DNA from: a virus
DNA length: 64,000 nt
IMG/VR virus record: IMGVR_UViG_3300004369_000005
Coordinates: 1 to 64,000 of that record
Direction: 5' to 3' (one strand)
Shown here: in pieces, positions 1 to 48,573 of the stretch
Layout: each line of letters opens with the position of its first letter
Numbering within the stretch: the first letter of the stretch is position 1
The notes under the pieces: model-generated
Seen by the model: only the letters and a program-made list of their open reading frames with translations
Database searches by the model: none
What the model was told of the DNA's origin: nothing
Program-made: the position numbers and the translations under genes

Positions 1-43
1 TCATACATCTCAGTCGTGAGACGATTGCCAAGCATCCATAGTT

Positions 44-196
44 TCATGATTTATGTTTCTTATCAAAAGGTTGCCAGTGTTGCCAGTTATATTTATGGAT
101 CGCCCATATACCAGCAATAGGAACTGCTATCAACAATATTCCTAGTATTCCAAGTCCTATGGGACTTTCCATTGTGTGTCGTATGAATAAAATCAT
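44..196 (-). CDS. small membrane protein, hypothetical (50 aa, MILFIRHTMESPIGLGILG...)
   Basis: Hand-translated ORF below the track cutoff; one hydrophobic segment; its stop overlaps the ATG of a next gene that runs off the window. Confidence 0.6.
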   Translation of the reverse strand: MILFIRHTMESPIGLGILGILLIAVPIAGIWAIHKYNWQHWQPFDKKHKS

Positions 197-257
197 TCTG
201 AAAATATCGATAGTATAAAAAGAAATACTCCAAAACTACACATGAAAATAAGAATGC

Positions 258-419
258 CTAGTTGGACTTCCATGTTTTCCAAGGGTCGCTATTGTTTATA
301 CATGAATTAGGATGAGCCCATTGTTTTTCATCTTTCATAGACAAAATATGTCTTAGTCTTCGAATCTCTTCTTTTAACCAGCGGTTTTCTTTTTTTAGTT
401 CTTCAATGTGCTGTTCCAT
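258..419 (-). CDS. hypothetical coiled-coil protein (likely start MEQHIEE)
   Basis: Track ORF 258..452; start moved to 419 because the upstream part overlaps ndhP. Confidence 0.5.
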   Translation of the reverse strand: MEQHIEELKKENRWLKEEIRRLRHILSMKDEKQWAHPNSCINNSDPWKTWKSN

Positions 420-534
420 TTCCTTTATAGTTTTCGGTATCATAGTATCCACCTTTCCTTGCTCCGAAGTAGAGTGTGGTTAAAACAAAAGGCACCGCCA
501 CAATTAGCAGTGCCCGTCCCAATAAATGCTCCAT
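403..534 (-). CDS. ndhP: NDH-1 subunit NdhP homolog (43 aa)
   Basis: Hand translation MEHLLGRALLIVAVPFVLTTLYFGARKGGYYDTENYKGNGTAH: one TM helix plus the NdhP C-terminal signature FG.x.G[FY]YD[ST]..Y.GNG[ST]AH. Confidence 0.88.
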   Translation of the reverse strand: MEHLLGRALLIVAVPFVLTTLYFGARKGGYYDTENYKGNGTAH

Positions 535-640
535 GTTTTTTTATTTGGAATGTGTGAAATGACTGAAGTTAATACGAACCATTCGGATGCTGTAGAATAA
601 ACTACATACTTGATATCGTTTACTGTAACGATATACTTCC

Positions 641-754
641 TCATGGATTATGGTTTTTGTTTTCTTTAATTTTTTGATATCCCCATACAGCGAGGGTGCC
701 GATACCTAGACCAGCAAGACAACAGAGTAACATATGCCAAAAGTGATGGGTCAT
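641..754 (-). CDS. small membrane protein, hypothetical (37 aa)
   Basis: Hand-translated MTHHFWHMLLCCLAGLGIGTLAVWGYQKIKENKNHNP; ATGA overlap with the petE stop. Confidence 0.55.
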   Translation of the reverse strand: MTHHFWHMLLCCLAGLGIGTLAVWGYQKIKENKNHNP

Positions 755-7428: not shown

Positions 7429-10400
7429 TTACAAAATAGTCCAACTGGAGTTATCACCGAACACAATGTTTACACCTTGTGCCACGGTAATCGGACCAGT
7501 TGATACGTTGTTACTGTTAGCATCGATGTTAACATCATACTGAATTTCAGTATTGTATGCTCTAATAATACCCTGTGAGTCTTGATATTGCTTGACACCA
7601 CCAATATATGTAGCACCAGTAACGTTGAAATCACCTTCAACATCGAGAGCATAACCAGGATCTTTATCAGTAGTGAATCCAATACCAACTCTGGATGCTC
7701 TATAGATGTCATCACCATTAGGAGATTCGGTCCATCTGGATGTTACGAATGGTGCGTTGTTCTGGAACAACTGACCGTTGACATTCAAGTCGCCATTGAT
7801 GTTGGCAACATAGAGTCTTACAGTAGAATCTTCTGGATCAACACCTTGGAAAGCGTTGGTGTTGACTGCCATTCTGTGAACGTCAACAGGAGTTGTACCT
7901 CCCTGACCGTCATCAACTTGTACTACATCTACGGTAAGAGCCAGGGCTGGAATTGTTGGATTCCAATCAACACCACCAGCACTTGCAGATGCGCGAATAG
8001 CAAATACGTTATCATCTAAGAGATTATTTCCAACTTCAAAGTTTCTGAATCCAGAAGAACCTAGGAAGTACAATGGAGCACCACCATTATCATCCTTATG
8101 ACCTATTGTAAGAGAATCTTTGATTCTCGTATCGCCTGTAACATCTAGTTCATAGGAATCATTTGGTGTCATATTAACACCAACTTTACCGTTACCAGTA
8201 ATTGTTAAAGCATTAGAGAAGTTCTTTGTGCTGAAGTGCATTGCAACAGCAGTTGTCAAACCATTGAATAGTTGATTGAAGTAAACATCACCAACGCTAT
8301 TGTCATAATGAATTTCAAATCCTTCTGTAGTTGCATCGCCACCTTCACCCAAGAGTCTTAATCTTGCATCATAGTCATTATTTTGAGAGTAAATATCGAC
8401 GACTACATCTTGTGCTTGATCGTCAGTAATTGTTAGTTTAACTCCAGAAGGAGCAGCAGCTGCACCAATAGCAACGGAATCGTTGCTAGCATCAACAAAG
8501 AATGTATCTGTGTTGACAGTAAAGTCAGTTCCAACTGTTGCATCTGCTAGTAGATTTGCCGTTCCACCAACACTCAAAGTTGCTGTACCGCTAATGGCGA
8601 GATTACCAGTCATGGTATCGCCACCCTTGAGAACGTTCAAGTTGGCAGCACCTTCGATAACTGCACCGTTTGCAGTGTCAAGAGTAATAGTTCCGCAAGA
8701 GAACTGTCCGTTAGCACCACGAAGAACAGCAGTCTCTGCAACATTCAGAGTCTGGAACTGGATGTTACCTGCGTTCCAGATCTTATTACCATTAATAGAG
8801 AATCCATCAACAGTCTGTACCTGAGCGTTTAGAGTACCAGAACCAGCGGTAGCGTTACCACCCTGTGCGACAAGAGCAACGTTATAAGTTGCTGCAAGAG
8901 CAGAACTGTTAAAGTAGATACCAGGAGATGATCCTGATCCATCTGTTCTACCAAGTCTTAGGTTACCTGTACCACCATCACTTTCGAGTGTAGCAACGTT
9001 AATTGTGTTGCCTTCATCAATGGTGAAGTCTTGGAATTCTTTTCTGTCAGTTGCAGAACCGATAGTTAGAGCACCTACGAAGTCACCAGTTGTGAGTCTA
9101 CCAATGATAATTGTGTAGTCATTGGAGTTATCAACGGTATCGTTATTGACGATGATGTTGTCAATCTCGATTGTACCAGTACCCTGTCCCTGTGCGTTGT
9201 AGAGGTTTACTGCCTCACCAGGAACAAATGGTGAAGCTGCAAGAACTAGACCAGAAACATAGATCTTATATCTTCTATCGCCAGGGAAATATCTGATTTC
9301 AATTTGATCTTGGAACGCAGTATCATCAATAAAGTCTGGTAGTCTATTATCGGAAATAGTTCCGTAGTTAATATTGAGAGCGTTTTGATACCAAGATCCT
9401 TGCTTGTTATCAAGTTTGTCTGCATCAAGTCCCGAATCAATACCATCATTGAGTGCGGACCAGATTTTACCCCATGAACCGAATGATGTAACACCAGTTC
9501 CCGAACCACGGATATACAGGTTATCGTTATCGGTAAATGCAAGTTGTCTTACACCACCGAATGAGGTATCGAAACTAGTACCACCTGCTCTGAAGGTAAG
9601 AACCATGTTCTTGGTTCCACCATCATTGAGTAGGTTTGCACTGTTATTAATCGTGTTAGCAACAACACCACCAACGAAGTTATCTGGAGTTGGGCTGGAA
9701 GTTGGGTTGTTAGTACCAGATGCCAGTCTCAATGTGTTACCAGACTGGTTAGCAATACTGATGTTGTATGTACCAGAGAGGCGATCCTCACTCAATCTAC
9801 CAGAACTGATGTTGGTAGCGTTGAGGTAGTAAGAACCTTGCTGACCGTCGAGAAGGTCAGCATCAAGACCAGAGTCGGCACCAACATTCAGTTCGACGGA
9901 TCCGTTACCAGATACACCAATATTGAACTGAGATTTCTTGAATCTTGCAACACCAATAGTACCAAATAGGTCTGTTGAAATTGTTTGATCCGAAACTCTT
10001 TGGATGTCAACCGAAACGTTTGCATACTGTCTATTGACTGTACTTACTTTAGCAAGTAAGACTAGACCAGAACCAGCACCAATTTCTGTTGGTGGGGTTG
10101 AGATTGTAAAGTCTCCATCATATCCAGAACCAGAGGAAGTAATGGTAAGTTCAGTAATTGCACCACCAGCAACAACCAAGTTACACTTGAGACCGTTACC
10201 TGTACCACCAACTAGATCGACATCAAAGTATTGACCGTTTGTGAATCCTGTACCACCATTTGAAATAATTACGGAATCAACAAAATTACCTTGGGTAAAT
10301 GTTGACTCAAAGATCATTGGAGATGATCCTCTTTCAAATTCTAGAATTGTTCCGCTTGGAATTGTTGCAGTTACTGGGTTATTGATAGAAACTGTAGTTT

Positions 10401-13400
10401 CACCATCTACTGTCAGAACACCAGTGATGTTAGTATTTGGTTGAATACCAACAATGTTGTTGAGTACCTCGTGACCGATTAGTGCATCTGCTAAAGTATT
10501 GAAGAGAAGTTCTGAAGATCCAGTATTGACTTGACTAATTAACTGTGCGAAGTATCTTGTCTCTGCTCCCTTGACAGATTGAACTGCTAAAGCCCAACTT
10601 GAATCACCTCTTAAGAAGGTGTATGAGTTTGCAGCTCCAGTCTGAGCGAGAACATCGGTACTGATAGGACCGCCAGTAATAGAAACACCATCAACAACGT
10701 TGCTCGATAGAGATACCCAGTTAGCATTATTAAATGAAGATGTGTTGACTGCTCTGTTGACATCAATATCAACAGAAGGAACATCGCTACTTTCAATTTG
10801 ATCTGTATCTTCGATCTTAATTCTGTTAACGATATTACCGTATAGTCTGCTTTCAATAAATGCATTTGCGGTTGCTTGAGAACCACCACCTTGAGGAGCA
10901 TCAATAGTTACAATTGGTTGTGTGGTATAATTTAAACCACCGATGTACCCATTGAACTTAATGAGTTCAATAAGAACAACTTCACCATTAGCAACGGTTG
11001 CTTGTGCTTTTGCCTCAACAGATCCAGATGTAGGGTTACCACCAGAGATAGTAACAGTTGGTGGCGATGCTTGTAGATAGTTTGTACCACCACTAGTCAA
11101 CTGAATACTGTATACAACACCCTGTCTGTATTCAGTTGCTTGAATACGACCACCAGAGATGCTACCAGTGAAGATATCACCAATAGTAAAGGATAATGTT
11201 GGATCAACATTAAACGATACATACTGACTATCTAAATCATTGTTTAGAATATATGATGTGGATGTATCTTGTTCGATGGCAATGTCACCAGCGAGTGCTC
11301 CTTCAATCTCTAGTCTTGCATCTTCATCGGCAACAGTGTAGACTTCAAATGGTCTGAGTGCTGGAATCTGGTCTACAGAAATCTTACCAGAGTCTGTAAG
11401 TTGAACCAGCGCCTGAGGAACAGCGTTAGTTGAATATGGTTTGTTGATGTATGGACCAAGGTTGTTAGTGATATAATCTCTAACTGCTTTTTGAGTTGGG
11501 ATCTTGCTGTTAGATGAGTTAGCGCCACCAAGAGTGTTAGATGCGTCGAAACCAGTAACAACAACGTCTCCACCTTTCAGTTTCAAGAATTCAACTTCTG
11601 AAATGGTAACAGTACCCGTGAAGGTAATAGCACCAGTTCTGTTCTCGATCTTAGCAAATGTACCAACCTTGAAGTCACCAAGTTCATCAGTACCAGAGAC
11701 ATATACACGACCATAGAGTTCGGAAACCTGTTCGTATGCTTCAATCTTAGTACCACCGTTCTCAGGTAGTGCAAGATAGTTAGTACCAGAACCTGCAAAT
11801 TCCCAAGTATGTGAAGAGGAGTTAACGATAGAAGGTCTGTGTAGTCTGATTGTCGCTCCAACAGGAGGAGTACCTTCTTCCAAACCAGAAATTACATTTG
11901 TTAAGTTGAGTGGTTCTCCAGTGCCATTATCAATCGTTAGATCTGCCGTGAAAGGAGGACCTACAGTAACTCCACCTACAGCATCTACGAAGAACTCAAT
12001 TTCAGGATCTGTATTTCTATATCCATCAAACTTACAGATATAGTGCTCTAGGGGCTCTCTTCCAAGTCCACTAACACGTAGAATAGTTCTACCAGTTGGA
12101 GTTGCAGATACGTTTGAAATAGTACCAACGTCAAAGGAATATGCCTCTCTTCTAAATCCAATAGCGCGGAGAGCAAATGTACCGAAGTTTGTAGCAGAGT
12201 TGGTAATAGAACAATAACCACCAGTATCTGCTAGGACACCATCTTCACAGAAGATAACAAAGACAGAAACCAGCTGGGTATAACCATCTTCGACAACCTT
12301 GTATCCTGTACCACCAAAGGAAACGATAGTGAATGCGGATGCAACCATCGACTTACCCTGGTTGGGGAAGGACGCTGTTCCGTCTAGCTCTAGACCTGGG
12401 AAAGGACAGTTGGGTTGCTTGACCTTGGAACCATCAACCAGAGCACCGCTACCACCTAAGAAGGAGATAACAGAAGAGTTCTGGGTGTATGGCGATGCTT
12501 CAATGATTGGGTAGTCATCATAGATACCACGAATCGCCATTCTCTGGTTATTCTGGTCGTAAATAAAGTTATCTGGATATGTGATAATATCGGTATTATC
12601 CCAAAGAGTACCAGTATTTTTTACTGTTTCTCCTGGTGCAATAGAAGTTTCTGATTCAGGATCTGCTGCATACTCTAGAATTCCGTCTAAGAGTCCAAAC
12701 TCAGTATCAATAGTTGCTTCTACATTAGCGCAGATAGGAGCAGAAGGATAAAGAAGAATGTTCCAATCTTCAAACTTAGGAATTGGAGTGGTTGTTGTAA
12801 CAGGATCGTAGATTAGAATAGTGCCGTTCGTGAGAGACTCAACGTATGTGTGACTTACGCCAGCAGCACTTCCTGCATCACCGACATTCAAACTTACAGT
12901 TGTAACACCACTGCTTGAAGTTACACTAATAACTTCTAAACTCTTACCATAGTTTCTGTCTGTTGGAGTAGGAGAAGCAAGATTTCCACCACCATTAGAA
13001 GAACAGTTGAATGTAAGAGCACCCTCTTTAAAAGCAACTCTACCTGATTGTGGGAATGCTTGTGCTGGATCTGCAAACGAGATTGATAGAGCACCAGATG
13101 CAGAATCGTAAGTCGCAAATGAAGGAGTTACGGCAATGCTATTACCACCACTCCAGTTTCTCATTGCAGCTTTTGCATAGAGTTCTACTCTTTCATACGC
13201 ATAACGAGTTTCATCTAGTTTATCTGCCTCAATACCAGTAAGTTGTAGACCTGTGTAATATGCTTCTGCATTTGTTACAATACCTGAGTTTCCACCAAGA
13301 ACAAGGTCTCTGATTAGACCTCCAAGAATAAAGTTGATATCACGACGACACTTTCTCTCGTTGAGATCACTTAGATTGAGTGAAGGATATAGTGATTGGG

Positions 13401-16400
13401 TATCTAGGAATGCCTGATCTGCAATGACATCTCTATTTCTTGCAATTAGATATGCAGCATCTAGATATGTTCCATTAGTGTTATTAGCAACAACATCAAT
13501 GAAGAGATATGTTAGAGTGTCAATAGCAGCTCTTACATCATTGCAAGCATATCCGCTATTGTTTACTGTTCCATCCGCATTCAATAATGCGGTGCCTGTG
13601 ATTACTGTTGGATCAAAGTATCTTGGGACAGAAGAATATTCAGGAACATAAACTGGATCTGATGGAGTACCATACTCGGTTCTCCAGTTTCTCATTGCAT
13701 AAGTTGCTAGAGTTCTAGCATACTCCATTGCACGAACTGTCTGAATAATCTCATTTTCTACATAATCAATCTTTGCACCGACAACGTACTTTTGACCTGC
13801 CTCAATAACATTATGGTTAGTTCCGAATTCAAGGTCTCTGCAGAGAGCATTGAGGAAGTGTACGATGTCTTGCTTACATTGTTCGTCACTGACAGGAATA
13901 TTAAAACTTGGATATACTTTAGTTCCATTAGAACATTCAACTTCCAGACCAGCAATCTTAACAATCTCATCTTCAGAAATCGTTGCAATTGGATTTACTG
14001 TGCTAACAGTGGCAACTCCAGTTACAGCAGTGTCATAGTTGAAATCGTTTACAGTGTAATCAACACCATTATACGTTACCGTTCCACCAGTAATATATGT
14101 GTGCTCGAACCTAGATGGACCGAGGAAGATATCAAAGGTAGAACCACCAACTTGGATTGCATTGGCAATTGATCTCTTAAACGTATGAGCTGATTGTGGT
14201 AGATGCTTAACTGCTCCAGTTGTAGCGCCAGCAAATGTGTGTACTGCTCTAGGCTCATGCTTGATAGCATTAATATTTTCGTCGCCTGGTACAAATGTAT
14301 GAACGGAAGTATCGGATGATGTTCCAACATTAATAGTAAATGTTCCATCCTGTCTCTTCAATCCATTGGTGGTTGCGGAAACAAAACTGTGTGTTGATAG
14401 ATCAGTTGAAGCTCCAACGTTAACGTCAAATGTATTCGATGTTACGTTGCTAATCTTTAACCATCTGCCACTTGCATAGTCATATGATCTTGGATATGTA
14501 TGCTGAGTAGCATTTCCATCTAGATCACATGTAAAAGTAAGACTATTGTCTTCTAGTAAGATGTAATCATTTTGTGTAAATCCATGACTGGTAATACCAA
14601 TCGTAGCTACTCCAGTAGAAGGATTATATGATGCTGATTCTACTGTGTGAGAATTGCTACCAACAGCAGTAATAGTGATAGACTTACCTGCATATGGATC
14701 AATTCCTGGTCTTGGATATGTGTGCTCTGTTGCGTTACCATCTTTAGCACATGTAAAAGTAAACGAATTGTCGTTCAGAACAACACTTCTACCAACACCA
14801 AGACCATGCTGACCGACAGTAACAGTCAAGTCACCTGTGGAAGGATTGTAGGTAGCATCAGTAGGAGTGAAATATTCGTTCTCTCTAGATGCACCAATAT
14901 TAACAGTAATTTCGGTTTCAGTTACTGCAGTAATTTTAGTTGACTTACCTGCATATGGATCGATTCCTGGACGTGGATATGTCTTGACGGAATCATTTCC
15001 GTCCATCGTACAAGTAAAGCTAATGGAGTTATCTGCAAATACAATACCTTCACCAACACTCAGGGTGTGTGATCCAATGTTTAGAGTGATATCCCCTGTT
15101 GATGGATCATAGGTAGCAGCAGAAGGAGTAAATTCTTGGTTAGCTCCAGATGCTCCAACATTAACAGTAAACGTATTTGTTGTTACTGCATCGACATTTA
15201 GAGTTCTGTTGCTAGCATAGTGATGACTTTCTGGTGTTGCATGTTCGGTTTTATTACCGTCCATGGCGCAGGTGAAGATGATAGACTCATCTTGAATTCT
15301 GATTCCATCACCTACTTGCAATCCGTGGTTTGCAACAGTAAATACTGCCTCACCAGTTGCTGGATCATAAGTTGCATCAGTTGGGGTAAATTGCTGTGCT
15401 GGTGTACCACCAATGTTGTATACAGCAAAATACTCTTTCTTAAACTCATCATTAATTCTTCCAACGACTTCATCTGCAATGAAGTCTCTGTTGTTACGGA
15501 TAAACGTAACAGCGTCCTGGAATCTTCTTTCAACAGGAGTTGCTAGTGGGAAAGTGTTTGGAGAGTTTAGTAGTGTTAGAGTAACAGACTTTGTGTATGA
15601 TCTAACAGTTGCGTTTTGTCCTGGATCGAAGTGTGAGTATGACTCATCACCTGGATCTACTGCATATGCAGGGAATTTTTTGGGAATGACAAATCTTCTG
15701 GAACGACCGTCAGCGTCCTCAAGAATCTTGTAAATTCTTTGATAACCGTTTAGAGGAGAACAATCGATTGGGAATGTTGGTAGACCTTCAATGAAAATTT
15801 CTTGTCCTTCTCTGAAGTCATGGATATTAGTTCTACCGACTAGTTCATTAGTATAAAGTACAATACCACCAAGATCCTCAGCACTACCAAACTGTGATTC
15901 TTGGAAACCACCCGTAGCAATACTTGGATCACCTTGTAGGGTAAAATCAATACGCTGAATAGGTAGTGGGGAGCTGTAGTTATCATCAACAGAAACAACC
16001 TCACCTTCTGCTCTAATTGATTTTAGAGCAGTGGTATCAATTTGGTTCTGTATGATTGTTGCTTCTGAAATATCAATCGATGCTGCTACTTCACTATCCC
16101 ACTCTGGAGCTCCTAAAATAGGTACAACAGTGATGTCCCAATATGTTGGCGAATTATCATCGTTGATTCCAGCAACTTCATAGAAACCTTCCGTGAAGTT
16201 TGCATCATTAGTATCATCTAAGTGAACGTAAGTTCCTGGTGGAATAATTGTATCAGGATCATCTGTTGTACGGAAGATATTTTTACCTGCCGTTTGTGTA
16301 ATATTGAGGGTAATTGGATTACCTTTTGTACCAGTAATAATATATCTGTAACTCTCACCCTCTAGGAAAGAACCACTAGTCAATGTAACGTCGAGAGTAC

Positions 16401-17868
16401 CAGTCAGATATGCATCTGCTCCAATGGTAGTATCAAAGTTAACATCAATAATAGTTGCTCTCGAACCAGTGTTTAGACCGACAACTTCTAAACCTGCTTG
16501 TAAATTAGCACCACCTGTATTTTCTTGGAAGTCAACACGGAATTGATCTGGTCCAAAAATCTGATGACCGACTGGGAAGAAAGTGCCAAAATCTCCATTT
16601 GCTTGAGAGTCTACTAGAATTCTTTGCTTATCGTCAAAGACCATAGCAAAGTCCCAAGTGGCGACTGCATCTCCAACAGAGTCAACCTGATCTCGGTACG
16701 TAACACCAATGATATAGTTCTTATCACCGAACTTCATGATGTGTTTGTTAGGATTCGCTGGTCTAATAATTACCAGACGAAGGTTATCACCAACGATTGA
16801 TGCATCAGGTGGAATAGAGATTGGGTTATCTTCTACGTAATCACCACCAGAAACGATAATTGTTTCTTTAACACCAGGAGTAGTCCATGCCAACTGACAT
16901 GCTTTCTTGATTGTTCTGACTGGGTTTACAGCAGAACGACCGTCATTCTCGTCGTTACCAATCTGCTGTGAAACGTAAATACGACCACCAACGTCATTCG
17001 TTGCTAGGTTAAGGACGTATTCGGTAGTTGCAATTTTATCTGATCGATCACCTAGCAGAGGAGTGATAGATCTTGGATAGACACCTGCAGCTCCAGTTTG
17101 GTTATATCCAAATGCATTTTCGTCTTCTACACGGTAACCAATATGCTTAAATTGAACTTCTCCGTTGAGTTCAATTCCATCAGTATGTGTAGGAGCCTCA
17201 CTTCCAGTTTGTCCTGTATTCAGTGCTTGATAAACATTAGCACCAAAGTATCTGTAGGTATTTTTCTGTAGAATAACATTGGAATCCCAAATAGTTCCAG
17301 TATTATTGACAAAAGTTTTAAAATTTGGACCTCTGAGAACTAGGTCAGGAGTAACGAAGTTATCAATGTCTAAGTTCAGAACTCTCGCCGTATCTGAAAT
17401 GATTGACGTTGATGTTCTAATAGCACCGTTGATATCAAGTTCGAAGTCAACAGTATCAAGGAAAGCTTCAGCAGCAGCACCAAATCCGTTATCACTTGTA
17501 AAAGTGATTTGTGGCGCTTCTGTATAACCACTGCCAGGCTCGTTGATAGCAACGTTAACAACTCGTCCGTTAAAGATAAAAGCAGTGGCAAGAGCTCTGA
17601 TTCCACCAGGAGTTGTTGGAGGTGCAATAGAAACAGCAGGAGCAATGGTATAACCAGAACCGCCAGCAGTAATAGTAATATTATTGACTCGCTGACCTGT
17701 TCTATTAATACCAACACGAGGCAATCCAGTGGTCTCGTCTAGTAGAGTTCTTAGAATCTCTCGTTCACTGGAACCAGTACCACCTCTAATTGCTAGTTCA
17801 TTATCCCCGATTAATTGAGGAGCAACGCCTCTAATTCTTTCTTTATCGGAATTGATATTAAAACTCAT
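7429..17868 (-). CDS. giant virion structural/tail-fibre protein (3479 aa) with nested beta repeats and two phycobiliprotein-like helical domains
   Basis: ORF track; GSGYT..P.V repeats, SGLDADLLDG fibre motifs, beta-helix-like segments; located in the structural block. Confidence 0.85.
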   Translation of the reverse strand: MSFNINSDKERIRGVAPQLIGDNELAIRGGTGSSEREILRTLLDETTGLPRVGINRTGQRVNNITITAGGSGYTIAPAVSIAPPTTPGGIRALATAFIFNGRVVNVAINEPGSGYTEAPQITFTSDNGFGAAAEAFLDTVDFELDINGAIRTSTSIISDTARVLNLDIDNFVTPDLVLRGPNFKTFVNNTGTIWDSNVILQKNTYRYFGANVYQALNTGQTGSEAPTHTDGIELNGEVQFKHIGYRVEDENAFGYNQTGAAGVYPRSITPLLGDRSDKIATTEYVLNLATNDVGGRIYVSQQIGNDENDGRSAVNPVRTIKKACQLAWTTPGVKETIIVSGGDYVEDNPISIPPDASIVGDNLRLVIIRPANPNKHIMKFGDKNYIIGVTYRDQVDSVGDAVATWDFAMVFDDKQRILVDSQANGDFGTFFPVGHQIFGPDQFRVDFQENTGGANLQAGLEVVGLNTGSRATIIDVNFDTTIGADAYLTGTLDVTLTSGSFLEGESYRYIITGTKGNPITLNITQTAGKNIFRTTDDPDTIIPPGTYVHLDDTNDANFTEGFYEVAGINDDNSPTYWDITVVPILGAPEWDSEVAASIDISEATIIQNQIDTTALKSIRAEGEVVSVDDNYSSPLPIQRIDFTLQGDPSIATGGFQESQFGSAEDLGGIVLYTNELVGRTNIHDFREGQEIFIEGLPTFPIDCSPLNGYQRIYKILEDADGRSRRFVIPKKFPAYAVDPGDESYSHFDPGQNATVRSYTKSVTLTLLNSPNTFPLATPVERRFQDAVTFIRNNRDFIADEVVGRINDEFKKEYFAVYNIGGTPAQQFTPTDATYDPATGEAVFTVANHGLQVGDGIRIQDESIIFTCAMDGNKTEHATPESHHYASNRTLNVDAVTTNTFTVNVGASGANQEFTPSAATYDPSTGDITLNIGSHTLSVGEGIVFADNSISFTCTMDGNDSVKTYPRPGIDPYAGKSTKITAVTETEITVNIGASRENEYFTPTDATYNPSTGDLTVTVGQHGLGVGRSVVLNDNSFTFTCAKDGNATEHTYPRPGIDPYAGKSITITAVGSNSHTVESASYNPSTGVATIGITSHGFTQNDYILLEDNSLTFTCDLDGNATQHTYPRSYDYASGRWLKISNVTSNTFDVNVGASTDLSTHSFVSATTNGLKRQDGTFTINVGTSSDTSVHTFVPGDENINAIKHEPRAVHTFAGATTGAVKHLPQSAHTFKRSIANAIQVGGSTFDIFLGPSRFEHTYITGGTVTYNGVDYTVNDFNYDTAVTGVATVSTVNPIATISEDEIVKIAGLEVECSNGTKVYPSFNIPVSDEQCKQDIVHFLNALCRDLEFGTNHNVIEAGQKYVVGAKIDYVENEIIQTVRAMEYARTLATYAMRNWRTEYGTPSDPVYVPEYSSVPRYFDPTVITGTALLNADGTVNNSGYACNDVRAAIDTLTYLFIDVVANNTNGTYLDAAYLIARNRDVIADQAFLDTQSLYPSLNLSDLNERKCRRDINFILGGLIRDLVLGGNSGIVTNAEAYYTGLQLTGIEADKLDETRYAYERVELYAKAAMRNWSGGNSIAVTPSFATYDSASGALSISFADPAQAFPQSGRVAFKEGALTFNCSSNGGGNLASPTPTDRNYGKSLEVISVTSSSGVTTVSLNVGDAGSAAGVSHTYVESLTNGTILIYDPVTTTTPIPKFEDWNILLYPSAPICANVEATIDTEFGLLDGILEYAADPESETSIAPGETVKNTGTLWDNTDIITYPDNFIYDQNNQRMAIRGIYDDYPIIEASPYTQNSSVISFLGGSGALVDGSKVKQPNCPFPGLELDGTASFPNQGKSMVASAFTIVSFGGTGYKVVEDGYTQLVSVFVIFCEDGVLADTGGYCSITNSATNFGTFALRAIGFRREAYSFDVGTISNVSATPTGRTILRVSGLGREPLEHYICKFDGYRNTDPEIEFFVDAVGGVTVGPPFTADLTIDNGTGEPLNLTNVISGLEEGTPPVGATIRLHRPSIVNSSSHTWEFAGSGTNYLALPENGGTKIEAYEQVSELYGRVYVSGTDELGDFKVGTFAKIENRTGAITFTGTVTISEVEFLKLKGGDVVVTGFDASNTLGGANSSNSKIPTQKAVRDYITNNLGPYINKPYSTNAVPQALVQLTDSGKISVDQIPALRPFEVYTVADEDARLEIEGALAGDIAIEQDTSTSYILNNDLDSQYVSFNVDPTLSFTIGDIFTGSISGGRIQATEYRQGVVYSIQLTSGGTNYLQASPPTVTISGGNPTSGSVEAKAQATVANGEVVLIELIKFNGYIGGLNYTTQPIVTIDAPQGGGSQATANAFIESRLYGNIVNRIKIEDTDQIESSDVPSVDIDVNRAVNTSSFNNANWVSLSSNVVDGVSITGGPISTDVLAQTGAANSYTFLRGDSSWALAVQSVKGAETRYFAQLISQVNTGSSELLFNTLADALIGHEVLNNIVGIQPNTNITGVLTVDGETTVSINNPVTATIPSGTILEFERGSSPMIFESTFTQGNFVDSVIISNGGTGFTNGQYFDVDLVGGTGNGLKCNLVVAGGAITELTITSSGSGYDGDFTISTPPTEIGAGSGLVLLAKVSTVNRQYANVSVDIQRVSDQTISTDLFGTIGVARFKKSQFNIGVSGNGSVELNVGADSGLDADLLDGQQGSYYLNATNISSGRLSEDRLSGTYNISIANQSGNTLRLASGTNNPTSSPTPDNFVGGVVANTINNSANLLNDGGTKNMVLTFRAGGTSFDTSFGGVRQLAFTDNDNLYIRGSGTGVTSFGSWGKIWSALNDGIDSGLDADKLDNKQGSWYQNALNINYGTISDNRLPDFIDDTAFQDQIEIRYFPGDRRYKIYVSGLVLAASPFVPGEAVNLYNAQGQGTGTIEIDNIIVNNDTVDNSNDYTIIIGRLTTGDFVGALTIGSATDRKEFQDFTIDEGNTINVATLESDGGTGNLRLGRTDGSGSSPGIYFNSSALAATYNVALVAQGGNATAGSGTLNAQVQTVDGFSINGNKIWNAGNIQFQTLNVAETAVLRGANGQFSCGTITLDTANGAVIEGAANLNVLKGGDTMTGNLAISGTATLSVGGTANLLADATVGTDFTVNTDTFFVDASNDSVAIGAAAAPSGVKLTITDDQAQDVVVDIYSQNNDYDARLRLLGEGGDATTEGFEIHYDNSVGDVYFNQLFNGLTTAVAMHFSTKNFSNALTITGNGKVGVNMTPNDSYELDVTGDTRIKDSLTIGHKDDNGGAPLYFLGSSGFRNFEVGNNLLDDNVFAIRASASAGGVDWNPTIPALALTVDVVQVDDGQGGTTPVDVHRMAVNTNAFQGVDPEDSTVRLYVANINGDLNVNGQLFQNNAPFVTSRWTESPNGDDIYRASRVGIGFTTDKDPGYALDVEGDFNVTGATYIGGVKQYQDSQGIIRAYNTEIQYDVNIDANSNNVSTGPITVAQGVNIVFGDNSSWTIL
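14150..15395 (-). repeat. four ~90-aa intragenic repeats (A.Y[DN]P[AS]TG...H...FTC..DGN...P) with nested closing strands
   Basis: Visible in translation; GACTTACCTGCATATGGATC is identical at 14681-14700 and 14942-14961. Confidence 0.85.
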
Positions 17869-36600: not shown

Positions 36601-39600
36601 TTTCTTTAGATTATCATCACCTTCTACCTGAATAATTGCCGTGAGTGACTTGAAAACTGCTCTTGGAGATTCTGCGATAATAGCAGAAGTAGAGAATGCC
36701 AGTGGAACTGGTAGACTTGCAATAGAAATTTCGGATGCAATAGTCTTGATATTTGCATCAAGTTTTGGTTGAATACCAATAGTAACAAGAGATACAGCAA
36801 TATCTCTTTCAACTAAGATGTCATATCCTCTAGCAACTACTGTCTTAGGAGCAGAAGTATATCCACTACCAGGGTTGATTAGATCAACACTGAGGATGTG
36901 ACCGCCAAGAGTTAGAACCTCTGCCTGTGCTCCACCACCATTGCCATCTTCAGGAATAAACTGAATGATTGGTGGTGTATAGTATTGATATGCTGTAGGT
37001 TGTGTATTAGGATTATAGTTACGCTGGTTCCACTCTAGTCTTGCAATTCTGCCAGTGAGAACTTGGTTTCCATTTTCGTCCTCTACCGTCTCCATAATAG
37101 GAACAACACTGAGACCTGTTCCTTCGGTAGATCCGTTGTATGCTTCGACACCAACAATACCAAAAATGGAGTTATTAGATGGAATAGAATTGCTGTAATC
37201 CTTAGAGGTTACAATGCTAGGAAGTGCAGAGATCTTTCTGAAAGCAGACTCGCCATCGACTCTAATAGTATCACCACTGTTTAGTGGTAAGAAAGTCTTT
37301 CTGTAAGATCTACCTAGTTTAGTAGCATTCCACTTACCATTTCTATCCGCAAGACGGATTCTTCCTGTCTCGTCTCTAGTAATAGTTCTGTCAATTTGAT
37401 TAATGATAACGTTTGTGGTAATTGAAGCATCAGCAATAGATGCTAGTCGTACAACATATCTGTCTCCAAATGCTTCACTTGTTACGAGTTCGTGGTATTG
37501 AGAAACAATAAATCTTGCTTTAATAGTTACAATATTACCAACTTCACTGAAGATATATGGATCAATAATATCTCCTATAGGAGCATCAAAAGATGAACCA
37601 TTGGATTTAGATCCAATCGCTCTATATCCAGCATATCTCTTGTCTCGCATCCAAGAGTCATATGATACATTATCATCATTCCTAGCAAGTCTATTAACTG
37701 CTTGAACTGCAAAAGCTGTTGATTTATCGAGAGTGAATGTAATATCACCTTGGATGTAATAAGTGTTTGGTGAGTAGTCGTAGATATTGAGAATCTGACC
37801 GACATCCCTACCATAAAGGAGTCTCATATCAACATCATTCTGCTCTGTGATTGGAACATTAAAGTAGATGTTAGGACCAGAGATAGTGTAACTATAACCT
37901 TCTCTCTGTAAGACACCATCGACAAAAACGAACAAGAATTCTTTCTCGTCGATCTTCTGGACTGAGCGATCCTCCATATCCAGGATTAGGAATGGACCAG
38001 ATCTTACACCATCTACCAAGTTGTAATCAATTGTAAGTCTCTTATAGTTACCAACTCCAAGACCTACAACTCTTTCAACTGCAGTTGGTTCGCCAATACT
38101 CTTAGCACCAAAATCTTGATCCCAGATAGGAGCAACATCAAATACAATCTTGTTAGGAATTACAGTTCTATCAATATAATATGCATCGCCACCTGGGTAA
38201 GTTGCGTTATACTTAGGTTGCTGTAATACGGCATTGATGGTGATAAAGAAGTCCTCATCTTCCTCAGAGTTGACTTCTGTGCCATCTTCCCAATACAGTT
38301 CGAACTCTTTGGTTTCTCCGTCAACATAATCAGGGAGCGACCTTGAAACTGATTCTTCATTGAGAATGTCAGTAACATTAGCAAATAGAGAATCTACTGA
38401 AGAAATGACATCAGCACATTCACTATCTGGAAGCAGAGGATCTTCGATGATGTTATAATTTGTGTATACTCTCAGTGAAGTCCAGTTACCTTCGCTGTTT
38501 AGATTCTGTGGTGTCGCATCGACATATCCAGTTCCAAAAGCAAGGATGTCCTTAACAATTTGAATGTAAGAACTCAGTGCTGACGCCACATTAGCACATG
38601 CTGGGGTGAGAGAATCAATAGCAACGTCTGGATCTGTAACAGGAGCAATGTTGGTATAAGTTCCTGCACCCAGACTATTTCTCATTGCTAGTGTCATCTT
38701 CTCGACTAGCAAATCCCACGCAGCAATAGCTGCGGCAGTCTCTTCAACACTTCTATTAATAGATGTTAAAACTTCTCCATAAGGATATCCTGCATTGGTG
38801 TAATATAGTCTTCCAAATTCTACAACCTGCTCGGTGCCACCAAACTTAAGGTGATAAACAATTGCGTCGATGAGATATCCTAGATCTCTAGCACATTTTT
38901 CGACTGTTGTTTGGAGAGTGTAGTTATTGTAGATAGTAGCACTAACTTCTTCCTGCAAGTATGCTTTGTTTGCAGCAATTAGATTTGCAGCATCATAGAA
39001 AGTACCAGTATTAATACCACTGAAGTAGAATGTAGCAGTATCAGATCCAGAGAATGATGGAGGAACACTGAAGGTATCTCCCTCATCAACAGTAAATGTA
39101 TCGCCTGGTTCTACCGCTGCTGTGCTAGTTGGGCTAACAGCATTTCCATCAGTAATGCCATCAAAGGTTGTAGTTCCCGCAGGAGCTCCACCTCCTCCAA
39201 ATCCAGAGTTAGAGAGTGCTGCTCTAGTCAGTGTAATTTGAGTCTCACTATCAATAGAAGCGATTCTAGTGCCTTCTGGGAAAGAACCACCAGAACTGAT
39301 AAGCATACCAACAGCAACTTTGTTGGTGTCTGCCATCGTCAGAACTCTGGATCCTTGAATAAAGTTAACATTATTAATTACAATGTCCCAGTTCCTAATT
39401 GCCAGTTTAGAAAGATTGGTAGCATATCTAATAATATCGAGAGAAGATTCTTTATTGTCAGTAATATAATCGTAAGTATTATCTTCGTTAAAATACGATA
39501 GATAATCAACAGTCTTTACATTACCTCCAAACCTTAAATCATGCTCGTATGCCTTGAGGATACTTCTCAGATCTGACTCATAACTAGATCCTTTGGTACT

Positions 39601-42600
39601 CCAATCTAGTGTTGGGTAGATCTCTTTACCGTAACCAACAGATTCCGAGACAATAAAGTCAAGATTTCTTTCGATCTGATTAGCAGAATCTAACCATCTT
39701 CCGTTACGCTGGAAAATGTTTCTGATTTTTCTTAGATACCTGTTATTTGATGCAGTATCTTTGAATGCAAAATATCTGCCATAGAATTGCATTCCTTTGT
39801 ATGATGTTACATCACCAAGTCTAGATCCAGTCAGTTTTGTGCTATTACCAAGAGGTGCTTGCGAGAATACAATATCACTTCCATCAATTGTATATGCTAC
39901 TCCTGGTTCCTGTAAGATTCCATCTAAAGTAACAAAGATATTATTTACTTTTGCAGGAACAAAAGGATTATCAAAAGAATCTCTTAGTTGGAACCTAGTT
40001 GTACCAACGGTTTTGACGTTTGCTCCAGTATAAGGGGTGTCATTGATGTCAACACCATCGAATGAGTTCTTTGCATACCATGGCTTACCATCGGCAATAA
40101 CATCATCATAGAATCCAGGAGTTGGGTTGTATACTCTAATAGTATATGCTCTGAATTCATTGAAATTAAATTCTGAGGATGCAATAGAACCAGGACCTCT
40201 TCTGATTCTGTTATTTTCTACTTTTTGAATAGACTGAGTGATAACTCTATGTTTGATATCACTAGTAATAGTATTAACTTCTGGATTCCAAAGTTGTATA
40301 ATAGAAGCCTTGCCAGATCTAGGCATCTTAGCAGGCATTCTTGTATTAGCATCAGTCTCAATATCAACTTGACCGAACAGTTTGAAACCAGCGGGGTGTG
40401 TTGTTGACTTAATTAAGTCTCTCCACTGATCGATTGGAGTTCTAGACTTGACAACATAGGAATAATCCTGATAGAAGAAACTATCAGTTATTCTCTGTGA
40501 TCTGTCACTAACTTTACCTCTAGCAGAAGTATAAAATCCTGCATTGTCGTAAGATGATGTGATATTCTCAGTTAGTGTACTAAAATAGACTGCTTTCACC
40601 GCAGCTCTATTAGTTGGATTGCTAACACTAACAATAGGAAAATTATTTCTTACAATTCCCTGTAGTTGATTGAGTTTTAGTAAATTTGTACCAACTTTAA
40701 ACTCACCAACTCGTGCTCGGAAAACTTCTCTTCCTTCTGCATTCGTTTGTGTTACAATCTCTCCTTTTTGGAAGTTACCAATCGGTTCTGTAGGAGATGA
40801 TCTCTTCAGTGCAATAGTAAACTGAGATGTAAAACTAGATGCTACTGTTTTGTCTAAATGGAAGGCACCACCATTGCGAGTAATCTTAATGCTCTGAGGA
40901 ACACCAATAGTATTACTATCAACATACAACTCGGCATTAGATTCAATAATCTCTACTGTTGGTTTGTATGTGTATCCTTTTCCTGCATTCTCTACAGCAA
41001 TAATAGAAATCTTACCATTAGTTACACTTGGTTTGAATCTAGCACCCTGTCCGTCTCCGTCAGTAATTACAACAACTGGATTTGTGTAATTTGATCCACC
41101 TTCTGTTACGGTTATACCAGTAATAACTTGTACTTTTTCATCAAACTCTACTTCAGCAGTTGCTTTGTATGTTGGAGTGATGTCTACACCAGTAATTACA
41201 GGAACTTTCTTATAGTTAAGACCAAGATTAGTTACCTTAATAGTATTGATTTCGCCAATAGAGAAAGCACCTTTTGATGTGTACGTAATAACTCCCGATC
41301 CATCCCACAGAGGTTTGAAAGGAACATTGTATACAATTCTTGTAGGTGTTACATAAATTACAGTCTTCTCGCCCTGTAGAGGATCTGTAATAAGTTCTAG
41401 ATATGCATCATCTGACGTTACAACACCATTCTTGTCAAAATAGTAGAATGTTGTAAAATCAGTTCCTACTTTAGTATCATACTGGTTCTCAGCAATCCTA
41501 GGACCAAAACCAAATTTAACTTCCGTAAACGCTCCTGTATTTCCAGGAAGAATAGTAGATGCAAGTTTTTCTTCTGTAATAAGATTGTATGCTCTACTTG
41601 GACTTAAGTCAAAATAAGTTCCAGTTAGAGATGAGTGTGAAGTATCAAACTTGTAGCGATAAAATTCCTGAATCTGAATATTTGGATTGGGGGTGAATGA
41701 AATGTTATCTTCAGAAATTTCAAACTTGAAGTTAGGAGATTCGACACTAGAAACAGTTACAAGTCTTGCTGGTGTACTACCATCAAAGAACGTGCTGCTA
41801 TTTTGAATTGAAGTAGCAGTATTTCTTTCAATACCATAATTGTAAACCAGGATTACTGATTGAGTGCTTCTATCATAAGTTAATACTTTTCCTGATGTTG
41901 ATAATCCACCAACTTGGAAGTTTTCTGGGAAGTTATATTGTGCTTTATATAAAGTTACTATTTGACCGTCATAATGATTCGTATCTACAGAACCTTCAAT
42001 GCCACGATTGACAGTAATCTCTGTTGGACTATCAATAGCAGTTACTTCCAGAATCTCGGATCCAATTTTAATCAGATCACCAATTGCGAGACCAGTAGTG
42101 CTCTTTAGTACAAGCTTGTTCTTTCCTTCTGCAAAACCAACGTGATCGACGTAGATGGAAAGTCTGGCAGTGCTTCTAGAAGCAGATGATCTGAAAAGAG
42201 ATTCATCATCGACAGAAAGATAATCACCTTTTCTATATCCAGTTCCTTTATTGGTGATGTCAACAGTAGCGACAGTAGCAGAAACTGTTGCAATAATTTC
42301 TAAACCTGTACTAGTTACTAATCCAGTCTCATCATCAAACACCTTAATGTAGTCTGGAAGGTCATCATTAGTGATAATAAATGATCCTCCAATATAATTG
42401 TATCCAGGTGTTTTTACATAAACTTTATTGCCTACAATTTGACCGTTATTAATTGTAAAAGATGCAACTAACCCATCACCGTCACCGCCAGAAATTACAA
42501 CATTATTGTAAACACCATCACGGTATCCAGAGTGAGTTCCTTGGACCTGTAAATCTGATACAACGTTGTTTTTGACAATGATAGTTGCAGTTGCACCAGT

Positions 42601-48181: not shown

Positions 48182-48573
48182 TATCGAGTACGCTCTAGGA
48201 AGAATTCTACATTTACGGGTGCATCATCCCTGCCTACGATATAATAACTTAACTCAATATCATATCCGTTATCCTCATCGTTTGGAATACAACGGATAGT
48301 GTCAACGGTAATCCTAGGTTCATACTTAGCAAGACAATTGGAAATCTCACCTCTGATGAGACCAGCACTACCATAGTCTAGTGGTTCGAACAACATTCTA
48401 GAAATGTTCGATCCTAGATCAGGACGAAATGGACGTTCTCCCTTCACAGTAAGAAGCAAAGCAGTGATCGATTGAGCGATAGCTGCTTTATCCTTCACTG
48501 TTACCAAATCATCGGAAACAGGATGCTTCTTAAATGTAACACTCAAATCTTTGAATGTCTGAAAGGAAGGCAT
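48181..48573 (-). CDS. gp25: baseplate wedge subunit (T4 gp25, GPW/gp25 family)
   Basis: GERPFRPDLGS and YEPRI motifs. Confidence 0.93.
   Translation of the reverse strand: MPSFQTFKDLSVTFKKHPVSDDLVTVKDKAAIAQSITALLLTVKGERPFRPDLGSNISRMLFEPLDYGSAGLIRGEISNCLAKYEPRITVDTIRCIPNDEDNGYDIELSYYIVGRDDAPVNVEFFLERTR

What the first reader, a model, noticed from the sequence alone, without database searches (positions are those of the whole stretch)
12670..15522. Two more phycobiliprotein-like domains in the 3479-aa fibre protein, one split by a ~500-aa insertion
Seen: copy 1 begins FQDAVTFIRNNRDFIADEV (aa 783), is interrupted by the beta-repeat block, and resumes as EQCKQDIVHFLNALCRDLEFGTN...AMRNW...ACNDVRAAIDTL (C1331, C1442). 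Copy 2 is LDAAYLIARNRDVIADQA..YPSL...RKCRRDINFILGGLIRDLVLGGNSG...AMRNW, then an insert, then ICANVEATIDTEF (C1507, C1713). Both keep the C-x-x-D helix and the C-terminal Cys helix seen in gp7. Inference: the same module family recurs in two separate virion proteins (four copies), which argues against a chance motif match and suggests multiple chromophore sites per particle.
Basis: partly seen in the sequence, partly recalled or inferred. Interest (0 to 1): 0.85.

Follow-up and report, generated by a model that had tools for sequence, protein, structure and literature searches.

The report
Phycobiliprotein-fold domains in cyanophage fibre
A giant tail-fibre protein of a marine cyanobacterial virus contains two domains, one split by a 500-residue insert, that are true distant relatives of the host's light-harvesting pigment proteins and keep the pigment-attachment motif; this makes it testable whether the virus particle carries pigment and senses light, although pigment binding itself is not shown.

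Summary
Residues 781-1735 of the 3479-residue fibre protein (window 7429-17868, minus strand) of a T4-like cyanomyovirus form two tandem all-helical modules.

**Fold.** AlphaFold2 models, made with phage-only alignments, superpose on phycobiliproteins (PBPs):
- Module 2: Z 15.4, rmsd 1.8 A over 127 residues.
- Module 1: Z 16.0 over 150 residues. Its two N-terminal helices pack back onto the C-terminal helices across a 507-residue beta insert.

**Sequence.** A profile of the module hits only PBPs in the PDB (best E 6.6e-6). It aligns K-C-R-R-D on Cys82-Arg84-Asp85 of phycoerythrin alpha. It also finds PBP-sized frames as the top hit in five of five cyanobacterial genomes.

**Conservation.** In about 1,600 module copies from metagenomes, this Cys, Arg and Asp are among the five most conserved positions.

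**Inserts.** Insert lengths vary widely between orthologues, and one orthologue has no insert in module 2.

**Distribution.** Among isolates the module occurs only in cyanophages. The lyase gene cpeT sits next to a module-bearing fibre gene in three phage genera.

Homology and fold are well supported. Bilin attachment is a plausible inference, not shown. The same scan had already reported the same domain family in another protein of this genome.

The parts
7429..17868 (-). 3479-aa fibre / virion structural protein gene that holds both modules
   Evidence: ORF list and translation. PHROG phrog_5342 'tail fiber protein' matches end to end. Orthologues in S-RIM44, S-CAM4, S-RSM4, ACG-2014e and S-WAM2 are annotated as tail fibre or structural protein.
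15445..15528 (-). Module 1, N-terminal piece (aa 781-808): two helices equivalent to PBP helices A/B
   Evidence: AF2 helices 7-18 and 20-34 of model mc53331250e3b. They are included in the superposition on phycoerythrin beta, model 1..687 on chain 25..184. Seed HMM hit 782-817.
13912..15432 (-). Insert 1 (aa 813-1319, 507 aa), all-beta, in the B-E loop of module 1. It holds four tandem ~85-aa units (aa 826-1169, window 14362-15393), a linker and a small beta domain that is present in all orthologues.
   Evidence: AF2 strands 39-545. The unit HMM finds four tandem copies. In orthologues the distance from the start of the N piece to the start of the C piece is ~120, ~541 or 1275-1383 aa.
13483..13887 (-). 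Module 1, C-terminal piece (aa 1328-1462): helices E, F, G and H. Motif Q-C-K-Q-D with C1331; second Cys C1442 at the start of the last helix.
   Evidence: AF2 helices 554-574, 578-586, 600-618 and 669-688. VIA-align Z 16.0, rmsd 2.7 A, 150 residues against phycoerythrin beta. C557, D560 and C668 of the alignment are invariant in 38 orthologues.
13159..13470 (-). Module 2, N-terminal part (aa 1467-1570): helices A/B, E (K-C-R-R-D, C1507), F and G
   Evidence: AF2 helices 13-23, 25-39, 47-70, 74-81 and 94-116. The profile aligns C53/R55/D56 on Cys82/Arg84/Asp85 of phycoerythrin alpha. K52, C53, R55 and D56 are invariant in 29 orthologues.
12811..13140 (-). Insert 2 (aa 1577-1686): one beta unit of the same repeat family, in the G-H loop of module 2
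   Evidence: AF2 strands 123-232. It is homologous to the four units of insert 1. It is absent in orthologue L087, and the whole module spans 196 to ~1160 aa in other orthologues.
12664..12810 (-). Module 2, G-H loop remainder and last helix (aa 1687-1735), with C1713 as the first residue of the helix
   Evidence: AF2 helix 259-281. Model residue 278 aligns with residue 172 of phycocyanin beta, which places C259 at beta-153 if the helix is ungapped. C259 is invariant.
38506..39711 (-). The two related modules in the 4255-aa gp7-like baseplate protein (aa 2224-2340 and 2457-2625). They are context for the finding.
   Evidence: blastp and HMM hits. Pfam PF00502 scores 21.9 bits against a cut-off of 22.2. 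Motifs are S-Y-E-S-D (Cys lost) and K-C-A-R-D.

Best explanation
SHOWN (about 0.93 confidence for this part). Window 12664-15528 (minus strand, aa 781-1735 of the fibre) encodes two tandem domains with the phycobiliprotein (globin-like) fold. They are true but distant homologues of PBP subunits. They lack the N-terminal X-Y helix hairpin and are built into a giant virion protein. Module 1 is interrupted in its B-E loop by a 507-aa beta-rich insert. Module 2 is interrupted in its G-H loop by one unit of the same beta repeat. INFERRED from variation between orthologues. The helical module is a compact, insertion-tolerant hub, and its loops display beta-repeat arrays of very variable length, probably the surface-exposed and fast-evolving part of the fibre. 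INFERRED and untested. The Cys-x-Arg-Asp site on helix E is the PBP bilin-attachment signature, and these residues are among the most conserved positions of the whole family. I therefore think it more likely than not that this Cys carries a covalently bound bilin. Attachment would happen in the infected cell, where bilins and lyases are present, by a host or phage lyase (CpeT for the second, beta-153-like Cys) or autocatalytically, as in ApcE. The fibre would then be a pigment-bearing part of the adsorption apparatus that might respond to light.
For: Fold. The AF2 model of module 2 has pLDDT 84.5. VIA-align gives Z 15.4, rmsd 1.8 A over 127 residues against phycocyanin beta 34-172. All top 50 rows are phycobiliproteins or bilin-binding proteins derived from or modelled on them (two are engineered), and 196 chains score Z>=8. 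Foldseek gives PBPs probability 1.0. The model of module 1 has pLDDT 85.9. It scores Z 16.0 over 150 residues against phycoerythrin beta with model range 1..687, so the split halves reassemble; the next non-PBP row scores Z 8.3. Sequence. The A1 profile against the PDB has phycoerythrin alpha on top, E 1.4e-4, with the motif aligned on Cys82-Arg84-Asp85. The paralogue profile A3 gives 76 hits, all top 60 being PBPs, best E 6.6e-6. hhalign against CpcA gives 89%, E 2.4e-6. PF00502 exceeds its cut-off for one copy elsewhere on the contig (26 bits). A3 finds PBP-sized frames as the best hit in 5 of 5 cyanobacterial genomes. Inserts. Their lengths vary, and one natural variant has no insert in module 2. 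Site conservation. Among 344 local module copies, Cys is kept in 94% and Asp in 98%. Among 1,516 copies from 150 representative proteins, C-x-R-D is kept in 94%. D1510, C1507 and R1509 are among the five most conserved columns. One 969-aa protein has eight modules and exactly eight Cys, all in this motif. Cys makes up only 0.16% of gp7, yet 3 of its 7 Cys sit at the two bilin-equivalent positions. Context. All 337 isolate records with the module are cyanophages. cpeT lies 1-1.5 kb upstream, on the same strand, of a module-bearing giant fibre gene in S-PM2, S-RSM4 and S-WAM2. Every isolate with an orthologue of this fibre is in the cpeT list.
Against: No chromophore, absorbance or pocket geometry was tested, and model coordinates could not be inspected. 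The B-E loop is 6-8 residues shorter than in CpcA in the profile alignment. From my memory of PBP structures, that loop contributes bilin contacts. Large inserts sit in two loops that flank the pocket. Module 1 has Gln in place of the Arg, and its own profile finds no PBP by sequence. One gp7 copy has lost the Cys yet persists. The fibre copies alone give no Pfam hit. Many module-bearing phages, such as Syn9 and S-RIM2, do not appear in the listed cpeT rows, so CpeT cannot be generally required. To my knowledge no coloured cyanophage preparation has been reported. The HMM used for the census contains the motif, so the counts lean slightly towards it.
Confidence: 0.5

Rival explanations
1. Apo scaffold. 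The modules descend from a captured PBP gene but no longer bind any chromophore. The helical domain is only a stable, insertion-tolerant hub for building fibres, and the C-x-R-D residues are kept for folding or packing.
For: Both modules carry large inserts of variable length in loops next to the former pocket. The B-E loop is shortened relative to CpcA. One gp7 copy lacks the Cys and copy 1 lacks the Arg. The X-Y hairpin is missing. Phage fibres often reuse host folds as building blocks (general knowledge).
Against: Packing needs do not easily explain why a Cys, an Arg and an Asp on one face of a helix are among the five most conserved of ~116 positions in ~1,600 copies, while the residue between them is free. 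They also do not explain a protein that has Cys only at this site.
Confidence: 0.33
2. Same fold, other chemistry. The conserved Cys-Arg-Asp site binds something other than a bilin (a metal ion or another tetrapyrrole), or the Cys forms disulfides between subunits once the particle is in oxidising sea water.
For: The conserved residues are reactive and polar. Each beta-repeat unit also keeps a conserved Cys in an F-T-C motif, so these proteins use Cys elsewhere as well. Virions do meet oxidising conditions outside the cell.
Against: Homology puts the site exactly on the bilin Cys and on its Arg/Asp partners. Tandem-array proteins with a single Cys per module argue against disulfides within a domain. 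In the PBP fold the two Cys positions are far apart (my knowledge of PBP structures).
Confidence: 0.12
3. Chance or convergence. The region is a generic helical bundle that happens to carry a PBP-like motif, and AlphaFold2 copied the PBP fold from that motif.
For: Single copies fall below Pfam's cut-off. hhalign reaches only 88-89% probability, with aligned columns mostly in the first half. Helical models can reach a middling Z by chance (note).
Against: Two independent models give Z 15-16 over the whole domain. One of them comes from a copy with no detectable sequence match to PBPs. Profile hits in the PDB are exclusively PBPs. The reciprocal search of cyanobacterial genomes lands on PBP-sized frames. 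The order and spacing of helices and both Cys positions agree with PBPs.
Confidence: 0.03

Closest known systems
Phycobiliprotein subunits (Pfam PF00502: CpcA/B, CpeA/B, ApcA/B)
   Same: The predicted globin-like helices A/B-E-F-G-H superpose at rmsd 1.8-2.7 A. K-C-x-R-D on helix E aligns with Cys82-Arg84-Asp85. A second Cys opens the last helix, as in beta subunits. By sequence the first half is closest to alpha subunits.
   Different: The modules have no X-Y hairpin and are not free 160-180-aa subunits. They are embedded in 3,000-6,000-aa virion proteins, in up to ~35 copies per protein. They are split by large beta inserts and have a shorter B-E loop. They have their own conserved D-L-x-x-G-G-N, second Asp and Tyr. 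No chromophore has been shown.
ApcE (core-membrane linker) PBP-like domain with its PB-loop
   Same: ApcE is a precedent for a PBP domain that is one part of a large multidomain protein. The ApcE chain 8imi_0 matches at Z 15.0. From my own knowledge, not tested here: its PB-loop insert lies between helices B and E, the site of insert 1, and it attaches phycocyanobilin without a lyase.
   Different: The ApcE insert is a short loop, not a 500-aa array of beta domains. ApcE sits in the phycobilisome core, not in a virus particle. ApcE has one such domain, whereas these proteins have many.
Globins / flavohemoglobin globin domain
   Same: Same superfold. Flavohemoglobins appear among the Foldseek rows.
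   Different: Those rows have far weaker alignments (TM 0.2, rmsd 18-20 A). Globins have no C-x-R-D motif. No globin appears among the sequence-profile hits.
Cyanophage pigment genes (cpeT, pebS/pcyA, ho1)
   Same: They occur in the same phage lineages. cpeT neighbours a module-bearing fibre gene. T-type lyases serve beta-Cys153 (PMC10452541), which is the position of the module's second Cys.
   Different: These genes are enzymes regarded as acting on host antenna proteins, and no phage-encoded substrate has been described. P-SSM2 has a bilin reductase but no module and no cpeT.

Membership tests
Phycobiliprotein superfamily (fold level) | Globin-like all-alpha fold with helices A, B, E, F, G and H in PBP topology | tested here: met
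   On predicted models only. Module 2: Z 15.4, rmsd 1.8 A, 127 residues. Module 1: Z 16.0, rmsd 2.7 A, 150 residues across the insert. The top rows are PBPs or PBP-derived proteins.
Pfam PF00502 Phycobilisome protein | A single sequence scores above the curated cut-off (22.2 bits) | tested here: not met
   The fibre as a whole and its modules alone give no Pfam hit even at E<=10. The gp7 region scores 21.9 bits. One copy in the third giant ORF scores 26 bits.
Phycobiliprotein superfamily (sequence homology) | Significant, specific and reciprocal profile similarity to PBPs | tested here: met
   A3 profile against the PDB: 76 hits, the top 60 all PBPs, best E 6.6e-6. A1 profile: E 1.4e-4. hhalign against CpcA: 89%, E 2.4e-6. 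PBP-sized frames are the best hits in 5 of 5 cyanobacterial genomes. The profile of module 1 alone finds nothing; its link runs through module 2.
Phycobiliproteins | Cys82 with Arg84/86 and Asp85/87 on helix E (bilin attachment site) | tested here: met
   Module 2 has K-C-R-R-D aligned residue for residue with K-C-L-R-D of phycoerythrin alpha. Module 1 keeps the Cys and Asp but has Gln for the Arg.
Phycobiliprotein beta subunits | Second bilin Cys (beta-153 in phycocyanin) in the G-H loop at the start of helix H | tested here: inconclusive
   Only alignment ranges are available. Model 278 on chain 172 puts C259 on residue 153 if helix H is ungapped. A permissive hhalign run also pairs it with the Cys of G-D-C-S, but without significance. 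No residue-level superposition could be read.
Phycobiliproteins | N-terminal X-Y helix hairpin that forms the alpha-beta monomer | tested here: not met
   Most superpositions start at chain residue 24-35, though a few cryptophyte beta-chain rows reach chain residue 3-4. Profile matches start at PF00502 position 16-32.
Phycobiliproteins | Free-standing subunit of about 160-185 aa that assembles into (alpha-beta)3 discs | tested here: not met
   The modules are internal parts of 3,479-, 4,255- and 5,228-aa proteins and are interrupted by inserts. Oligomeric state was not tested.
Phycobiliproteins | Covalently bound bilin with visible absorbance | not testable with these tools
   This needs expression with bilin synthesis genes, or spectroscopy and mass spectrometry of virions.

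The most novel reading that the evidence does not exclude
The virion is a photoreceptor. Bilins bound to the PBP-like modules of the fibre and baseplate proteins sense green or blue light and switch the adsorption apparatus. This would be the unexplained cause of light-dependent adsorption of cyanomyoviruses, and the phage lyase CpeT would exist to pigment the phage's own fibre. Modules and cpeT are present in P-HM1, P-HM2 and S-PM2, which do not adsorb in the dark. Both are absent from P-SSM2 and P-SSP7, which do adsorb in the dark (phenotypes from PMC6628666). That is only five phages, and they are not independent.
Probability: 0.2. Interest if true: 0.95.

Novelty: new variant of a known kind. 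Interest (0 to 1): 0.85.

Why it matters
Phycobiliproteins are known as the antenna proteins of cyanobacteria, red algae and cryptophytes. Here the same fold, with its pigment-attachment signature intact, is a repeated building block of virus particle proteins. The profile search found 1,261 protein clusters world-wide, with up to about 35 copies in one protein.

Two open questions become directly testable:
- Why adsorption of several cyanomyoviruses needs light but not host photosynthesis. [quoted passage not shown]
- What the phage-encoded lyase CpeT is for. It occurs even in phages of Prochlorococcus MED4.

The result is of interest even if the domains are pigment-free. It would be a clear case of a host antenna gene turned into a structural module. 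It would also be a natural example of a globin-like domain that tolerates inserts of 100 to more than 1,000 residues in two different loops.

Tried and rejected
- Pfam on the whole fibre and on each module alone gave no family, even at E<=10.
- The profile of module 1 alone (A2) against PDB sequences gave no hit at E<=1. Its PBP identity rests on the model and on its similarity to module 2.
- hhalign against a CpcB-only alignment was not significant (1.9%). That alignment had very low diversity.
- The ESM Atlas search with the first 125 residues of module 2 gave best scores of 0.79-0.82, below the level of a lead.
- Tandem Repeats Finder on 12600-15600 found nothing. The beta units repeat only at protein level.
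- CpeT (PF06206) and bilin reductase (PF05996) were not found on this 92-kb contig. The contig is about 48% complete. It ends in an HNH gene and a tRNA-Asn upstream of the 5228-aa ORF, which is where cpeT follows in S-RSM4 and S-WAM2. The absence therefore says little.
- The C-terminal Cys-helix HMM found only 104 copies among the 150 representative proteins. Whether the second Cys is general could not be settled.
- psbA was absent from five large viral records that carry related giant proteins, and CpeT was present in one of them. The host of those viruses is open.
A first reference was out of frame.
- Six of the nine literature searches looked for prior reports. None found a description of PBP-like domains in cyanophage virion proteins. 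Subscription journals are mostly not covered.
- No complex-prediction job was sent, because no binding claim is made.


Full report
**Setting.** The window is the structural-gene block of a T4-like cyanomyovirus, and all the genes named here lie on the minus strand.
- PHROG matches give gp25 (48181-48573), gp6 (46385-48181), a 4255-aa gp7-like protein (33613-46380) and gp8 (31703-33553).
- Two further giant proteins follow, then the 3479-aa protein at 7429-17868. That protein matches the 'tail fiber protein' family phrog_5342 end to end.
- DNA and protein searches of isolate phages hit only Synechococcus and Prochlorococcus phages.
- The window is part of a 92,120-base viral contig estimated to be 48% complete.

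**Observation.**
- The finding's coordinates equal residues 783-1733 of the fibre.
- The two copies match each other at blastp E 1e-10. Both match two copies in gp7 at E 1e-8 to 1e-9.
- A seed HMM of the four copies recovers the N-terminal piece of copy 1 (782-817) and its C-terminal piece (1317-1403) as separate significant hits.
- The same HMM finds about eleven pieces in a third giant ORF outside the window (contig 75853-91536, 5228 aa).

**Are the inserts real?** I fetched 80 related viral loci and mapped both modules in each.
- In module 1, the distance from the start of the N piece to the start of the C piece is about 120 aa in many orthologues, about 541 aa here and in others, and 1275-1383 aa in two.
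- Module 2 spans 196 aa in one orthologue (L087). It spans about 300 aa here, and 408, about 725 or about 1160 aa elsewhere.
- The alignment of module 2 (A1, 29 sequences) shows that L087 lacks the beta segment altogether while the helices align on both sides. K52, C53, R55, D56 and C259 are invariant.
- The insert of module 2 is one unit of a ~85-110-aa beta repeat. Four tandem units of the same family make up most of the insert in module 1.
- Both loops are therefore sites where beta units are gained and lost.

**Fold.** AlphaFold2 was run without templates, on alignments that contain phage sequences only.
- Module 2 has mean pLDDT 84.5. It shows six helices (2-8, the end of module 1's last helix, then 13-23, 25-39, 47-70, 74-81 and 94-116), a beta domain (123-232), and a last helix (259-281) that starts with the second Cys.
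- Foldseek gave probability 1.0 to phycoerythrins and phycocyanins.
- VIA-align gave Z 15.4, rmsd 1.8 A over 127 residues against phycocyanin beta residues 34-172. All 50 listed rows are PBPs, including the ApcE domain, or bilin-binding proteins derived from or modelled on them, two of them engineered.
- The 691-residue stretch that holds module 1 has pLDDT 85.9: helices 7-34, strands 39-545, helices 554-688.
- Its best matches are phycoerythrin beta chains at Z 16.0, rmsd 2.7 A over 150 residues, with model range 1..687. The next unrelated rows reach only Z 8.3 and cover the beta units.
- The two terminal helices are therefore predicted to pack back onto the C-terminal helices across 507 inserted residues.
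- Most superpositions start near PBP residue 25-35, so the X-Y hairpin of PBPs is absent.

**Sequence homology.**
- Single copies are weak. The fibre gives no Pfam hit, gp7 scores 21.9 bits against a cut-off of 22.2, and one copy in the third ORF scores 26 bits.
- Profiles are clear. The A1 profile's best PDB hit is phycoerythrin alpha (E 1.4e-4), with the module's K-C-R-R-D aligned on K81-C82-L83-R84-D85.
- A nine-sequence profile of paralogues and orthologues (A3) hits 76 PDB sequences at E<=1. The top 60 are all PBPs, best E 6.6e-6.
- hhalign against an alignment of 106 CpcA sequences, which I extracted from cyanobacterial loci, gives 89% probability and E 2.4e-6.
- In the reverse direction, A3 searched in six frames over five whole cyanobacterial genomes finds, as the best hit in every genome, an open frame of 171-191 aa. 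One of these is a cpcA locus I had already fetched.
- Module 1 alone finds no PBP by sequence. It belongs through its similarity to module 2 and through its model.

**The attachment site.**
- In 344 distinct module copies from this phage, its relatives, S-PM2 and P-HM1/2, the Cys82-equivalent is Cys in 94% and the Asp is kept in 98%. The Arg is kept in 56%; orthologues of module 1 have Gln.
- The A3 profile finds 1,261 clusters among 1.84 billion representative proteins. Many are giant proteins with up to 35 matched stretches.
- In 1,516 copies from the best 150 proteins, C-x-R-D is intact in 94%: Cys 97.7%, Arg 95%, Asp 99.3%.
- Ranked by information content, the five most conserved columns are the Asp, a second Asp eleven residues on, a Tyr on the next helix, the Cys and the Arg.
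- One 969-aa protein has eight modules and eight cysteines, every one of them in this motif.
- Cys is rare in these proteins. It makes up 0.16% of gp7, and three of its seven Cys lie at the two bilin-equivalent positions.
- The census HMM contains the motif, which biases the counts a little. The motif is, however, a small share of a typical 60-100-bit match.
- The second Cys is invariant in the orthologues of both fibre modules. By alignment register it falls on beta-153. It could not be traced in the tandem-array proteins.

**Context.**
- Of 50,697 isolate phage records, 337 carry the module, and all are cyanophages. A second, very different query gave the same result.
- cpeT occurs in 66 records. 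These include every isolate with an orthologue of this fibre: S-RIM44, S-CAM4, S-RSM4, ACG-2014e, S-WAM2 and Sf-CH1b.
- In S-PM2, S-RSM4 and S-WAM2, cpeT lies 1-1.5 kb upstream of a module-bearing giant 'short tail fiber' gene, on the same strand. Only tRNAs, an HNH gene or a 2OG oxygenase lie between them.
- Our contig ends in the same HNH gene and a tRNA-Asn upstream of its 5228-aa ORF. The failure to find cpeT on it is therefore probably truncation.
- Published work reports that P-HM1 and P-HM2 do not adsorb in the dark, that P-SSM2 and P-SSP7 do, and that S-PM2 adsorption needs light but not photosynthesis. The cause is unknown (PMC6628666; see also PMC2984593).
- I found modules and cpeT in P-HM1, P-HM2 and S-PM2. 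I found neither in P-SSM2 or P-SSP7, even at E<=10. P-SSM2 does have a bilin reductase.
- Five related phages are far too few for a correlation. This is a lead only.

**Reading.**
- That these are PBP-derived domains of PBP fold, one split by a ~500-aa insert and one by a ~110-aa insert, is well supported.
- That they serve as hubs for variable beta arrays follows from the variation in length between orthologues.
- That they bind bilin is an inference from the conservation of exactly the residues that bind bilin in PBPs, from the restriction to cyanophages, and from the cpeT neighbourhood.
- Against bilin binding: the shortened B-E loop, the inserts beside the pocket, the copies that have lost the Cys or the Arg, the many module-bearing phages without cpeT, and the lack of any spectroscopic observation.
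- I put bilin attachment at about one in two, and a light-sensing role at about one in five.

**Novelty.**
- Six of the nine literature searches looked for prior reports and found no description of PBP-like domains in cyanophage virion proteins.
- The same scan had already reported the same domain family on other DNA of this genome, in the 5228-aa ORF, and in gp7. My tests here were independent of those notes.

Noticed in passing
contig G000 75853-91536 (outside the window; loci L001, L003, L005-L007): A third giant ORF (5228 aa) holds about eleven HMM pieces of the same module. Several N-terminal pieces come before several C-terminal pieces, which looks like domains nested inside one another. 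Seven copies carry C-x-R/D-D motifs.
   Followed up: partly
contig G000 91537-92120 (outside the window): An HNH endonuclease-like frame and a tRNA-Asn (92026-92100, complement) lie just upstream of the 5228-aa ORF. In S-RSM4 and S-WAM2 the same arrangement continues into a tRNA cluster and then cpeT, so cpeT probably lies just beyond the end of this contig.
   Followed up: partly
window 14362-15393 and 12811-13140 (fibre aa 826-1169 and 1577-1686): Each ~85-110-aa beta-repeat unit keeps a Cys in an F-T-C-x-x-D/N-G motif (C867, C953, C1040, C1114, C1622). The number of units differs greatly between orthologues. The repeat is invisible at DNA level.
   Followed up: partly
window ~16650-17000 and ~12000-12560 (fibre aa ~290-410 and ~1770-1950): By eye, these stretches look like parts of a right-handed beta-helix domain lying on either side of the module region. 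If so, the two PBP-like modules and their inserts may themselves be an insertion in a larger domain. This was not tested.
   Followed up: no
proteins P0123-P0125 and P0190; loci L226-L284: Metagenomic giant proteins carry up to 35 tandem modules. Relatives of one of them (P0126, query) lie on viral records of 102-271 kb, three of them 96-100% complete by CheckV, that have no psbA. One of five has a CpeT gene. P0190 (969 aa) has eight modules and exactly eight Cys.
   Followed up: partly
L225 (S-PM2 NC_006820 165928-177267): In this RefSeq record a run of tRNA features is annotated inside the 3779-aa 'short tail fiber' CDS. This looks like a coordinate error in the annotation rather than biology.
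   Followed up: no
window ~15500 (fibre aa 786) compared with loci L010-L087: Most orthologues have Cys in the first helix of module 1 (Q-D-A-C), where this phage and its closest relatives have Val.
   Followed up: no
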